This document shows, one piece after another, positions 63,422-63,982 of a stretch of DNA of 64,000 bases (the stretch's first letter is position 1; each line of letters begins with the position of its first letter). Location of the stretch: NCBI RefSeq assembly GCF_054482525.1, contig NZ_CM137006.1; one strand, given 5' to 3'. Made by a program: the position numbers and the translations under genes. Under the pieces are notes generated by a model that did not search any database, was not told the DNA's origin, and worked only from the letters and a program-made list of their open reading frames with translations.

Positions 63422-63772
63422 ATCCTTTCTGTCAAGTTATCTGTTTGTTAAGTCAAGCAATCTATTTGCAACCCCACCATAACGATCATCCTGTTACGGA
63501 ATATTACACTGCAACATTTGCGCACAAAAAATAATCCGCATTCTTATTGCGGATTAGTTTTTTCTTAGCTGATAGCACAATTTTCATACTGTTTTTTGGC
63601 GTTCTGGATGTCTGAATGAGGATTTAGCGCCAGGTCGATAAAGTTTCCATCAGAAACAAAATTTCCGTTTAGTTAATTTAAATATAAGGAAATCATATAA
63701 ATAGATAAATATTGCTGTAAATATCATCACGCTTCTATGGAAATATGACGGTGTTCACAAAGTTCCTTAAAT

Positions 63773-63836
63773 TTTACTTTTTGTTACATATTTTTTCTTT
63801 TTGAAACCAAATCTTTATCTTTGTAGCACTTTCACG
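63773..63836 (+). promoter_or_regulatory. ompF promoter-proximal OmpR binding sites (F1-F2-F3)
   Basis: TTTACTTTTTGTTACATATTTTTTCTTTTTGAAACCAAATCTTTATCTTTGTAGCACTTTCAC: three tandem about 20-bp OmpR-type sites about 150-210 bp upstream of the ompF ATG, matching the known ompF promoter layout. Confidence 0.6.
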
Positions 63837-63982
63837 GTAGCGAAACGTTAGTTTGAATGGAAAGATGCCTGCAGACACATAAAGACACCAAACTCTCATC
63901 AATAGTTCCGTAAATTTTTATTGACAGAACTTATTGACGGCAGTGGCAGGTGTCATAAAAAAAACCATGAGGGTAATAAATA

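What the first reader, a model, noticed from the sequence alone, without database searches (positions are those of the whole stretch)
63422..63982. Long asnS-ompF intergenic region carrying the ompF promoter and OmpR site array
About 560 bp of AT-rich sequence lie between the asnS terminator and the ompF start. Tandem OmpR-type sites are clear at 63773-63836; a distal site (F4) and IHF sites are expected further upstream but I did not pin them down. The ompF leader, target of MicF antisense RNA, occupies roughly the last 110 bp.
Basis: partly seen in the sequence, partly recalled or inferred. Interest (0 to 1): 0.2.

Follow-up and report, generated by a model that had tools for sequence, protein, structure and literature searches.

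The report
Known ompF porin promoter region
This stretch is the well-studied control region of the E. coli porin gene ompF, present here as one ordinary natural variant, so it is correctly identified but not new.

Summary
The observation and the interpretation both hold. Between the asnS stop (63380) and the ompF ATG (63983) lie 602 bp. They align without gaps to the 602-bp K-12 MG1655 spacer, 583/602 identical.

With +1 at 63873:
- OmpR sites F1, F2 and F3 fall at 63773-63792, 63793-63812 and 63813-63832.
- The distal F4 site falls at 63493-63512.
- The 110-nt leader is 63873-63982.
- K-12 MicF pairs with 63966-63993 (-27.4 kcal/mol).

All 19 differences from K-12 lie at or upstream of -91. 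Two touch OmpR sites:
- F1 position 10 (63782, G>T) is tri-allelic in E. coli and is T in most other genera.
- F4 position 17 (63509, T>C) is carried by 1033 of 5426 genomes.

IHF sites can be placed only at consensus and conservation level (63684-63704 and 63805-63817).

- A conserved CRP-like site at 63741-63762.
- A second hairpin at 63532-63556, terminator-like on both strands.
- A facing minus-strand promoter-like site. This fits the published but uncharacterised K-12 transcript C0240.
- A distal ~300 bp found only in Enterobacteriaceae, with conserved islands that have no assigned factor.

Verdict: already known, low interest.

The parts
63378..63380 (+). asnS stop codon (TAA)
   Evidence: ORF 61980-63380. 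It has 16/1401 nt differences from K-12 asnS and 0 aa differences.
63393..63421 (+). asnS intrinsic terminator: 10-bp stem, 4-nt loop, T7 tail
   Evidence: Terminator scan. Folding gives -17.8 kcal/mol, z -6.7. The stem GCCAGC/GCTGGC and the T-run are conserved across Enterobacteriaceae genera.
63493..63512 (+). Distal weak OmpR site F4 (-380..-361): GTTACGGAATATTACACTGC
   Evidence: Placed by gap-free homology to K-12, 19/20 identical. A-C falls at positions 4-5 and 14-15, as required for OmpR sites (PMC1489923). It lies 260 bp upstream of F1, as stated in PMC3050692. It is conserved across genera as TGTTAC-N5-aTTtC. A small PWM does not recover it. The -380..-361 coordinates are from memory of Huang, Schieberl & Igo 1994, which could not be opened.
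63509..63509 (.). F4 position 17 polymorphism (window C, K-12 T)
   Evidence: The C allele is found in 1033 of 5426 E. coli genomes by a 55-mer search in which every 28-mer seed covers this base.
63526..63565 (.). Second hairpin (stem 63532-63540 / 63548-63556), flanked by an A-run and a T-run, so terminator-like on both strands
   Evidence: Terminator scan hits on both strands. Folding gives -13.5 kcal/mol (z -5.3) on + and -13.1 (z -4.75) on -. The stem is retained only in Escherichia and Citrobacter. Its left arm varies within E. coli without compensation.
63524..63685 (-). Candidate divergent small transcript of about 160 nt (C0240-like), from the minus-strand promoter-like site to the second hairpin
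   Evidence: PMC3082872 reports a K-12 transcript (C0240) on the opposite strand between ompF and asnS. Both ends here are inferred from consensus scans. The overall fold is unremarkable, z -1.4. No Rfam family reaches threshold. The 27-aa ORF 63587..63504 is 18 aa in K-12 and loses its ATG in E. albertii.
63692..63721 (-). Minus-strand sigma-70-like promoter: TTTACA-18-TATGAT
   Evidence: 10/12 consensus match, but it is the only match in the region and 2.2 are expected by chance. Both hexamers are invariant in 13 E. coli alleles and in E. albertii; the -35 is not conserved in other genera.
63684..63704 (-). Conserved block ATAAGnAAtTCATATAnATA (-189..-169), probably the upstream IHF site
   Evidence: This is the most conserved 20-bp bin of the distal region, 0.84. 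The minus strand reads TATGATTTCCTTA, 2 mismatches to WATCAANNNNTTR; other genera read TATGAAnnnnTTA, 1 mismatch. It coincides with the IHF footprint I recall (about -189..-154; Ramani, Huang & Freundlich 1992, from memory, not verified). IHF is listed as an ompF regulator in PMC10305011.
63741..63762 (.). CRP-like site AAATATGACGGTGTTCACAAAG (TATGA-N6-TCACA, centre -121.5)
   Evidence: One mismatch to TGTGA-N6-TCACA. It is conserved as TTTGA-N6-TCACA in all 12 other genera. It occupies the same position as the footprinted CRP site of Y. pestis ompF at -131..-109 (PMC3050693).
63754..63766 (.). Near-invariant block TTCACAAAGTTCC (-119..-107)
   Evidence: Nearly invariant in 14 sequences from 13 genera. 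It extends beyond the CRP half-site. No factor is assigned to the AAGTTCC part.
63773..63792 (+). OmpR site F1 (-100..-81): TTTACTTTTTGTTACATATT
   Evidence: 19/20 identical to K-12. A4C5, A14C15 and G11NNNC15 are intact (criteria from PMC1489923).
63782..63782 (.). F1 position 10 polymorphism (window T, K-12 G)
   Evidence: The position is T/G/A among 12 E. coli alleles. It is T in most other genera, and T at the same position of F2 and of ompC C1 (from memory). The exact window promoter haplotype is carried by roughly 2-3% of E. coli genomes.
63793..63812 (+). OmpR site F2 (-80..-61): TTTTCTTTTTGAAACCAAAT
   Evidence: Identical to K-12. TTTCTTTTTG is conserved across genera.
63813..63832 (+). 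OmpR site F3 (-60..-41): CTTTATCTTTGTAGCACTTT
   Evidence: Identical to K-12. TTTGTAGCACTTTCA is conserved across genera.
63805..63817 (+). IHF consensus match AACCAAATCTTTA overlapping F2/F3
   Evidence: One mismatch to WATCAANNNNTTR. It is the only such match in the spacer, but matches are not enriched in the window (53 found against 56.7 expected). It fits a remembered proximal IHF footprint, unverified.
63861..63866 (+). ompF -10 hexamer AAAGAT, with a weak -35 region (TAGCGA, 63838-63843)
   Evidence: Identical to K-12 and conserved across genera: TGAATGGAAAGATGCCT and TAGCGAAACG.
63873..63982 (+). ompF 5' leader, 110 nt, with +1 at A63873
   Evidence: 100% identical to K-12. The TSS is placed from the remembered 110-nt leader; about 111 nt is implied for Yersinia in PMC1489923. 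Spacing to the -10 is 7 nt. A large stem-loop spans nt 12-82 and the 3' end is open. The outer stem is kept in 23/24 Enterobacterales.
63966..63993 (+). MicF pairing region, covering the Shine-Dalgarno GAGGGT (63969-63974) and the AUG (63983)
   Evidence: RNAduplex of K-12 MicF nt 1-34 (L082) against the leader gives -27.4 kcal/mol; 100 shuffles give -12.1 +/- 2.7. The target sequence is nearly invariant in 24 Enterobacterales.

Best explanation
The interval is the orthologue of the E. coli K-12 asnS-ompF spacer, that is, the complete ompF transcriptional and translational control region, in a natural allele of the PCN033/SCU-102 lineage.

Mechanism (established for K-12, inferred here by sequence identity):
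[quoted passage not shown] It activates a promoter with a poor -35 and the -10 AAAGAT, giving an mRNA with a 110-nt leader.
- At high osmolarity, more OmpR~P also fills the weak F4 site 260 bp further upstream. A repression loop forms between F4 and F1-F3, helped by IHF bending near -180.
- A conserved CRP-like site at -121.5 probably adds cAMP input.
- After transcription, MicF pairs with the Shine-Dalgarno/AUG region and blocks translation.

The two changes in OmpR sites (F1 position 10 G>T, F4 position 17 T>C) lie at unconstrained positions and most likely leave this logic intact.
For: - Synteny is pncB-asnS-ompF(-aspC).
- The alignment to K-12 is gap-free and 602 bp against 602 bp, with 19 substitutions all at or upstream of -91.
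- F1-F3 are 59/60 identical and F4 is 19/20 identical, with the critical A-C dinucleotides in register.
- F4 lies 260 bp from F1, as described in PMC3050692.
- The MicF duplex is -27.4 kcal/mol against -12.1 +/- 2.7 for shuffles.
- The leader stem-loop and the MicF target are conserved in 24 Enterobacterales.
- A comparison of 14 sequences from 13 genera shows conservation peaks on the terminator, F4a, the -189..-174 block, the CRP-like block, F1b, F2a, F3b, the core promoter and the leader.
- The region is present in 5424/5426 E. coli genomes.
- The variant bases are common polymorphisms.
Against: - No binding or expression data exist for this strain.
- The TSS, the F4 coordinates and the IHF footprint coordinates come from memory of papers I could not open.
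- A PWM built from F1-F3 (plus C1-C3) ranks F4 only 129-161 of 1166 positions, so F4 is placed by homology, not recognised from sequence.
- IHF and CRP consensus matches are not enriched over chance on their own.
- The distal 450 bp are unusually diverged from K-12: 4.2%, against 1.1% in asnS.
Confidence: 0.95

Rival explanations
1. The distal half is more than a carrier of F4. It contains its own divergent transcription unit, a roughly 160-nt minus-strand RNA (C0240-like). This RNA would start near 63685 from TTTACA-18-TATGAT and end at the bidirectional hairpin 63532-63556. The same hairpin would also back-stop read-through from asnS. The RNA, or the act of transcribing it, could influence F4/IHF occupancy.
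For: - A promoter-like site (10/12) and terminator-like hairpins on both strands, with hairpin z-scores of -5.3 and -4.75.
- Tiling-array detection of a K-12 transcript, C0240, on the opposite strand between ompF and asnS (PMC3082872).
- Both promoter hexamers are invariant in 13 E. coli alleles and in E. albertii.
Against: - One promoter-like hit where 2.2 are expected by chance.
- The -10 overlaps the conserved IHF-like block, so its conservation is not specific to a promoter.
- The -35 and the hairpin are not conserved outside Escherichia/Citrobacter, and RNAalifold finds no shared structure on either strand.
- The left arm of the hairpin varies within E. coli without compensation.
- The whole RNA folds no better than shuffles, z -1.4.
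- No Rfam family reaches threshold, and no gene is annotated there in any RefSeq record examined.
- The small ORFs are not conserved.
Confidence: 0.25
2. The strain-specific substitutions in OmpR sites change ompF osmoregulation. F1 -91 G>T moves toward the consensus and could strengthen activation. F4 -364 T>C could weaken repression. Together they would give higher OmpF at high osmolarity.
For: - Both changes fall inside footprinted 20-bp sites.
- T at F1 position 10 matches F2 and most other genera.
- The allele travels with a divergent OmpF protein, 92.6% identical to K-12. This suggests the locus is under diversifying pressure.
Against: - F1 position 10 is tri-allelic (T/G/A) in E. coli.
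- F4 position 17 is C in 19% of genomes and is any base in other genera.
- Neither change touches the A-C or GNNNC bases reported as critical (PMC1489923).
Confidence: 0.1
3. The distal ~300 bp are a largely functionless AT-rich spacer. They would be kept only to hold F4 at looping distance, and the apparent extra conserved islands would be alignment noise.
For: - Mean conservation is low (0.33-0.55) over much of 63421-63480 and 63581-63680.
- Divergence from K-12 is high, 4.2%.
- There is no conserved RNA structure.
Against: - The 140-nt stretch 63486-63625 keeps its length to 137-141 nt in the 13 sequences compared.
- It holds islands conserved at fixed spacing: ACAAAAA, TTGCG, TAGCA and GC.ATCYRGAYG.
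- Families lacking F4 also lack the whole distal half: spacers of 245-303 bp against 544-786 bp. The distal half therefore behaves as a module.
Confidence: 0.3

Closest known systems
E. coli K-12 MG1655 ompF regulatory region (NC_000913.3 986983-987584): OmpR sites F1-F4, IHF sites, MicF-targeted 110-nt leader
   Same: Same flanking genes and the same 602-bp length. The alignment is collinear and gap-free at 96.8% identity. The core promoter, the leader and the MicF target are identical. F2 and F3 are identical.
   Different: There are 19 substitutions, all between -470 and -91. They include F1 position 10 (G>T), F4 position 17 (T>C) and two bases in the spacer of the IHF-like block. The second hairpin has a 9-bp stem instead of 10, with a longer T-run on the minus strand.
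Yersinia pestis ompF promoter (OmpR F1-F3 plus a footprinted CRP site at -131..-109; no F4) - PMC3050692, PMC3050693
   Same: It has tandem F1-F3, an ompF leader of about 110 nt, and a CRP-type site directly upstream of F1 at the same distance from +1.
   Different: Yersiniaceae, Erwiniaceae and Pectobacteriaceae have a spacer of only 245-303 bp, with no distal half and no F4. ompF is reported not to be repressed at high osmolarity in Y. pestis. The window has the long Enterobacteriaceae form.
E. coli ompC/micF control region (OmpR sites C1-C3, IHF, divergent micF)
   Same: Three tandem 20-bp OmpR sites sit upstream of a weak -35. IHF is involved. A small RNA is transcribed divergently from the porin gene's upstream region.
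   Different: micF is a characterised Hfq-dependent sRNA with an Rfam family. The minus-strand transcript proposed here (C0240) is uncharacterised and matches no family. ompC has no distal repressing site. This comparison rests on general knowledge; the ompC region is not in the window.
Bidirectional intrinsic terminators between convergent transcription units
   Same: A single hairpin is flanked by an A-run and a T-run, so it reads as stem plus U-tract on either strand.
   Different: It lies 150 bp beyond a strong dedicated asnS terminator. The convergent partner is only a candidate transcript. Termination was not measured, and the stem is not conserved beyond Escherichia/Citrobacter.

Membership tests
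E. coli ompF regulatory region (OmpR/IHF/MicF-controlled porin promoter) | Lies between asnS (upstream, same strand) and ompF | tested here: met
   ORFs and the K-12 / SCU-102 annotations. The asnS-ompF-aspC order is kept across Enterobacterales.
E. coli ompF regulatory region (OmpR/IHF/MicF-controlled porin promoter) | Collinear sequence homology to the K-12 spacer | tested here: met
   583/602 identical with no gaps.
E. coli ompF regulatory region (OmpR/IHF/MicF-controlled porin promoter) | Three tandem 20-bp OmpR sites F1-F3 abutting the -35, with the critical A-C / GNNNC bases | tested here: met
   63773-63832 is 59/60 identical to K-12. A4C5, A14C15, A34C35 and C53 are present. These are the top three PWM scores, though the PWM was trained on the K-12 versions of these same sites, so this is circular.
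E. coli ompF regulatory region (OmpR/IHF/MicF-controlled porin promoter) | Distal weak OmpR site F4, about 260 bp upstream of F1 | tested here: met
   63493-63512 is 19/20 identical to K-12, with A-C in register, and is conserved as TGTTAC-N5-aTTtC. Caveat: a PWM does not recognise it, and the coordinates are from memory.
E. coli ompF regulatory region (OmpR/IHF/MicF-controlled porin promoter) | IHF binding sites | tested here: inconclusive
   There are consensus-level matches at 63805-63817 (1 mismatch) and on the minus strand of 63686-63698 (2 mismatches), the latter inside a strongly conserved block.
E. coli ompF regulatory region (OmpR/IHF/MicF-controlled porin promoter) | 110-nt leader whose SD/AUG region is complementary to the 5' end of MicF | tested here: met
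   The duplex is -27.4 kcal/mol at 63966-63993, against -12.1 +/- 2.7 for shuffles. The leader is identical to K-12.
E. coli ompF regulatory region (OmpR/IHF/MicF-controlled porin promoter) | OmpR-dependent, osmolarity-responsive transcription from +1 | not testable with these tools
   This needs expression or footprint experiments. It is inferred from sequence identity only.
Intrinsic (bidirectional) terminator, for the hairpin 63532-63556 | Stable stem-loop followed by a U-tract on each strand | tested here: met
   Terminator scan on both strands. Folding gives -13.5 and -13.1 kcal/mol, with z -5.3 and -4.75.
Intrinsic (bidirectional) terminator, for the hairpin 63532-63556 | Convergent transcripts actually end there | not testable with these tools
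   There is only an array report of an opposite-strand transcript in K-12 (PMC3082872). No 3'-end data are available.
Small regulatory RNA gene (C0240-like) | Own promoter, own terminator, and sequence or structure conservation or a curated family | tested here: not met
   The promoter and terminator are consensus-level only. No Rfam family reaches threshold; the best hit is 22 bits against a gathering score of 55. There is no conserved structure, and the fold z-score is -1.4.
CRP-cAMP binding site, for 63741-63762 | TGTGA-N6-TCACA-type palindrome, conserved, at a class I-compatible position | tested here: inconclusive
   One mismatch to the consensus. It is conserved in all 13 genera compared and is positionally equivalent to the footprinted Y. 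pestis site. The consensus match alone is not significant (4 found against 2 expected), and binding was not tested.

The most novel reading that the evidence does not exclude
The distal ~300 bp of the spacer is an Enterobacteriaceae-specific module that is absent from Yersiniaceae, Erwiniaceae and Pectobacteriaceae. It may be more than F4 plus filler. It keeps a fixed length (137-141 nt for 63486-63625 in the 13 sequences compared). It carries conserved islands with no assigned factor: ACAAAAA at -349, TTGCG at -326, TAGCA at -300 and GC.ATCYRGAYG at about -270. In Escherichia it also carries a divergent small transcript (C0240) that ends at a bidirectional hairpin beside F4. An unrecognised protein, or this transcript, could be part of the high-osmolarity repression loop of ompF.
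Probability: 0.1. Interest if true: 0.4.

Novelty: already known. Interest (0 to 1): 0.1.

Why it matters
It matters little beyond correct annotation. The ompF promoter is a textbook model of two-component and sRNA control, and this window carries an ordinary natural allele of it.

The useful by-products are:
- Exact window coordinates for F1-F4, the core promoter, the leader and the MicF target.
- Evidence that the two OmpR-site changes are common, unconstrained polymorphisms rather than regulatory mutations.
- The observation that the promoter and leader are an island of complete identity between a diverged distal spacer and a diverged OmpF coding allele.
- A short list of conserved but unassigned distal motifs, plus an uncharacterised divergent transcript. 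These could be tested cheaply by anyone who still works on ompF repression.

Tried and rejected
1. Rfam with permissive thresholds on 63300-64000. Only sub-threshold hits appeared, driven by the terminator hairpins.
2. Counting the F1 T allele with a 55-mer megablast. The query was fully masked as low complexity, so there was no result. I replaced it with a 167-bp query read in spread mode, which gives only rough frequencies.
3. Locating F4 de novo with a PWM from F1-F3, with and without C1-C3. This failed, ranking F4 at 129-161 of 1166.
4. IHF and CRP consensus scans. The match counts equal chance expectation, so on their own they prove nothing.
5. Tandem Repeats Finder on the spacer found nothing. 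The OmpR sites are too degenerate to register as repeats.
6. Small ORFs in the spacer were rejected as genes. There are 20-42 aa ORFs on both strands. The 27-aa minus-strand ORF has no Shine-Dalgarno, is 18 aa in K-12, and loses its ATG in E. albertii.
7. A conserved RNA structure in the distal region was rejected. RNAalifold gives zero pairs on both strands across genera.
8. I tried to open the primary footprint papers (Huang, Schieberl & Igo 1994; Slauch & Silhavy 1991). They are not held. Searches for IHF coordinates and for C0240 gave nothing further.

Full report
**What is there**

The end of the window carries pncB (60561-61811), asnS (61980-63380, stop TAA at 63378-63380) and the first six codons of ompF (ATG at 63983), all on the + strand. 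The spacer 63381-63982 is 602 bp.

The asnS terminator is a 10-bp stem with a T7 tail at 63393-63421 (-17.8 kcal/mol, z -6.7).

The interval is 33.5% GC, against 51.1 +/- 4.1% for all 561-bp windows of the 64 kb. Only 0.05% of such windows are as AT-rich.

**Identity**

In K-12 MG1655 the asnS-ompF spacer is also 602 bp (NC_000913.3 986983-987584). The two align without a single gap and have 19 substitutions.
- All 19 lie between -470 and -91 relative to the ompF start.
- The last 201 bp before the ATG differ only at -91.
- The last 152 bp are identical.
- The region is found next to ompF in 5424 of 5426 complete E. coli genomes.
- It is 100% identical in strain SCU-102. The rest of the window is essentially identical to SCU-102, PCN033 and 19KM1776.

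**Coordinates of the known elements**

I take +1 as the A at 63873. The leader length of 110 nt is remembered. It is consistent with a 7-nt distance from the -10 AAAGAT at 63861-63866, and with the leader of about 111 nt implied for Yersinia in PMC1489923.

| Element | Window coordinates | Relative to +1 | Sequence |
|---|---|---|---|
| F4 | 63493-63512 | -380..-361 | GTTACGGAATATTACACTGC |
| F1 | 63773-63792 | -100..-81 | TTTACTTTTTGTTACATATT |
| F2 | 63793-63812 | -80..-61 | TTTTCTTTTTGAAACCAAAT |
| F3 | 63813-63832 | -60..-41 | CTTTATCTTTGTAGCACTTT |

- The bases PMC1489923 lists as critical (A4C5 and A14C15 in F1, A34C35 in F2, C53 in F3, and the GNNNC motif) are all present.
- F4 is 260 bp upstream of F1, as described in PMC3050692, and has A-C at positions 4-5 and 14-15 in register.
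- The -380..-361 coordinates come from memory of Huang, Schieberl & Igo 1994. I could not open that paper.
- A PWM from F1-F3 (with or without C1-C3) does not single out F4 (rank 129-161 of 1166). F4 is therefore placed by homology and by cross-genus conservation, not recognised de novo.

**Leader and MicF**

The leader 63873-63982 folds into one large stem-loop (nt 12-82), leaving the 3' 45 nt open. The outer stem is kept in 23 of 24 Enterobacterales sequences.

I used the annotated K-12 micF gene. MicF nt 1-34 pair with 63966-63993 at -27.4 kcal/mol, against -12.1 +/- 2.7 for shuffled targets. This covers the Shine-Dalgarno GAGGGT and the AUG. MicF therefore targets the last 17 nt of the leader plus 11 nt of coding sequence, not the whole leader.

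**Strain-specific changes**

Two of the 19 substitutions fall inside OmpR sites.
- F1 position 10 (63782, -91) is T here and G in K-12.
  - Among 12 E. coli alleles it is T, G or A.
  - In most other genera it is T, as at the same position of F2.
  - The exact promoter haplotype of the window is carried by roughly 2-3% of genomes. K-12-like haplotypes make up about 30%. The commonest type (O157-like, A at -91) makes up about half.
- F4 position 17 (63509, -364) is C here and T in K-12.
  - The C allele is in 1033 of 5426 genomes.
  - The position is not conserved between genera.

Neither change touches a base reported as critical, so I judge both to be neutral polymorphisms.

The distal 450 bp differ from K-12 by 4.2%, against 1.1% (all synonymous) in asnS. 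The OmpF protein of the identical-spacer strain is only 92.6% identical to K-12 OmpF. The promoter and leader are thus an island of identity between two diverged flanks.

**Cross-genus comparison**

A scan with AsnS returned 80 loci. The asnS-ompF-aspC order is kept throughout Enterobacterales.

The spacer is 544-786 bp (mostly about 600) in 12 other Enterobacteriaceae genera. It is only 245-303 bp in Erwiniaceae, Pectobacteriaceae and Yersiniaceae. This agrees with the reported absence of F4 in Yersinia.

In an alignment of 14 sequences, conservation peaks fall on:
- the asnS terminator stem;
- TGTTAC of F4;
- a block at -189..-174;
- a near-invariant TTCACAAAGTTCC at -119..-107;
- F1b, F2a and F3b;
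- the core promoter;
- nearly the whole leader.

**IHF and CRP**

The -189..-169 block reads, on the minus strand, TATGAT/TATGAA-N4-TTA. That is two mismatches to the IHF core in E. coli and one in other genera. It coincides with the upstream IHF footprint I remember (about -189..-154, unverified).

The only one-mismatch IHF core match in the spacer is AACCAAATCTTTA at 63805-63817, overlapping F2/F3.

Consensus matches are not enriched over chance (53 found against 56.7 expected), so these placements are provisional.

The block upstream of F1 contains TATGA-N6-TCACA (63744-63759, centre -121.5).
- It is conserved as TTTGA-N6-TCACA in every genus.
- It sits where CRP was footprinted on Y. pestis ompF, at -131..-109 (PMC3050693).

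A second hairpin (stem 63532-63540 / 63548-63556) is flanked by an A-run and a T-run. It scores as a terminator on both strands.

Facing it on the minus strand is a promoter-like TTTACA-18-TATGAT (63721..63692, 10/12). Together they would give an RNA of about 160 nt. Stead et al. (PMC3082872) report a K-12 transcript, C0240, on the opposite strand between ompF and asnS, which fits.

The case for function is weak:
- One promoter-like hit was found where 2.2 are expected by chance.
- The -10 overlaps the IHF-like block.
- The -35 and the hairpin are kept only in Escherichia (the hairpin also in Citrobacter).
- RNAalifold finds no shared structure on either strand.
- The left arm of the hairpin varies within E. 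coli without compensation.
- The RNA as a whole folds like a shuffle, z -1.4.
- No Rfam family reaches threshold.
- The small ORFs are not conserved.

**Unexplained residue**

The stretch 63486-63625 keeps its length to 137-141 nt in the 13 sequences compared. It contains islands conserved at fixed spacing: ACAAAAA, TTGCG, TAGCA and GC.ATCYRGAYG. I cannot assign a factor to any of them.

A 15-nt direct repeat, AGTTCC[T/G]TAAATTTT, occurs at -112 and at +32. Both copies are conserved across genera, and 4% of Markov simulations reach a match this good.

**Verdict**

The finding is real and correctly interpreted. It is the textbook ompF control region in an ordinary natural allele: already known, low interest. 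The only mildly novel reading is that the distal, Enterobacteriaceae-specific half holds an unrecognised component of ompF repression. I put that at about 10%.

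Noticed in passing
L095 (E. coli strain 201609, urine isolate), equivalent to window 63839-63847: An IS4-family element (ISVsa5, IS10-like, frameshifted transposase) is inserted in the ompF promoter. It has a 9-bp target duplication AGCGAAACG (-34..-26), which separates F1-F3 from the -10. This is probably a porin-down clinical variant.
   Followed up: partly
L094 (E. coli isolate 366_BP0076, urine), junction after window-equivalent 63566: An IS200C copy starts immediately after the T-run of the second hairpin. The rest of the spacer and the whole ompF gene are missing (asnS - IS200 - aspC), so this is a natural ompF deletion.
   Followed up: partly
L083 3603-4676 (strain SCU-102, spacer identical to the window): The ompF allele that travels with this spacer encodes 357 aa (K-12: 362 aa). 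It is only 92.6% identical to K-12 OmpF, with two indels, while asnS next door has no amino-acid change. The window itself stops 18 nt into ompF.
   Followed up: partly
window 63761-63775 and 63904-63918: The 15-nt direct repeat AGTTCC[T/G]TAAATTTT (14/15) occurs once just upstream of F1 (-112..-98) and once in the leader (+32..+46). Both copies are conserved across Enterobacteriaceae genera, and about 4% of simulated sequences give a match this good. No factor is known to me.
   Followed up: partly
window 63643-63657: A perfect palindrome GTTTC-CATCA-GAAAC lies at -230..-216. It gives the best non-F1-F3 scores in the F1-F3-only OmpR PWM scan. It is identical in K-12 but not conserved outside E. 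coli.
   Followed up: no
window 63896-63907 and 63978-63989: The leader segment UCAUCAAUAGUU is 83% complementary to AAAUAAUGAUGA at the start codon, so a MicF-like anti-AUG element sits inside the leader itself. The minimum-free-energy fold does not use this pairing.
   Followed up: no
window about 51170-51820: This is the only other stretch of the window as AT-rich as the ompF spacer (33.3% GC over 561 bp). By synteny it lies in or near the elf (ycb) fimbrial / ssu region. I did not examine it.
   Followed up: no
L020 (Photorhabdus cinerea) 3902-5878; L024 (Superficieibacter electus) 3902-4687: Photorhabdus has a second porin gene inserted between asnS and the ompF orthologue, as described for P. 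luminescens plu1752. Superficieibacter has an extra ~190 bp directly after asnS, including a second GCCAGC...GCTGGC hairpin, which gives a 786-bp spacer.
   Followed up: no
summary (plasmid records): Four matches to the ompF spacer lie on records labelled as plasmids in the E. coli collection. I did not inspect them.
   Followed up: no
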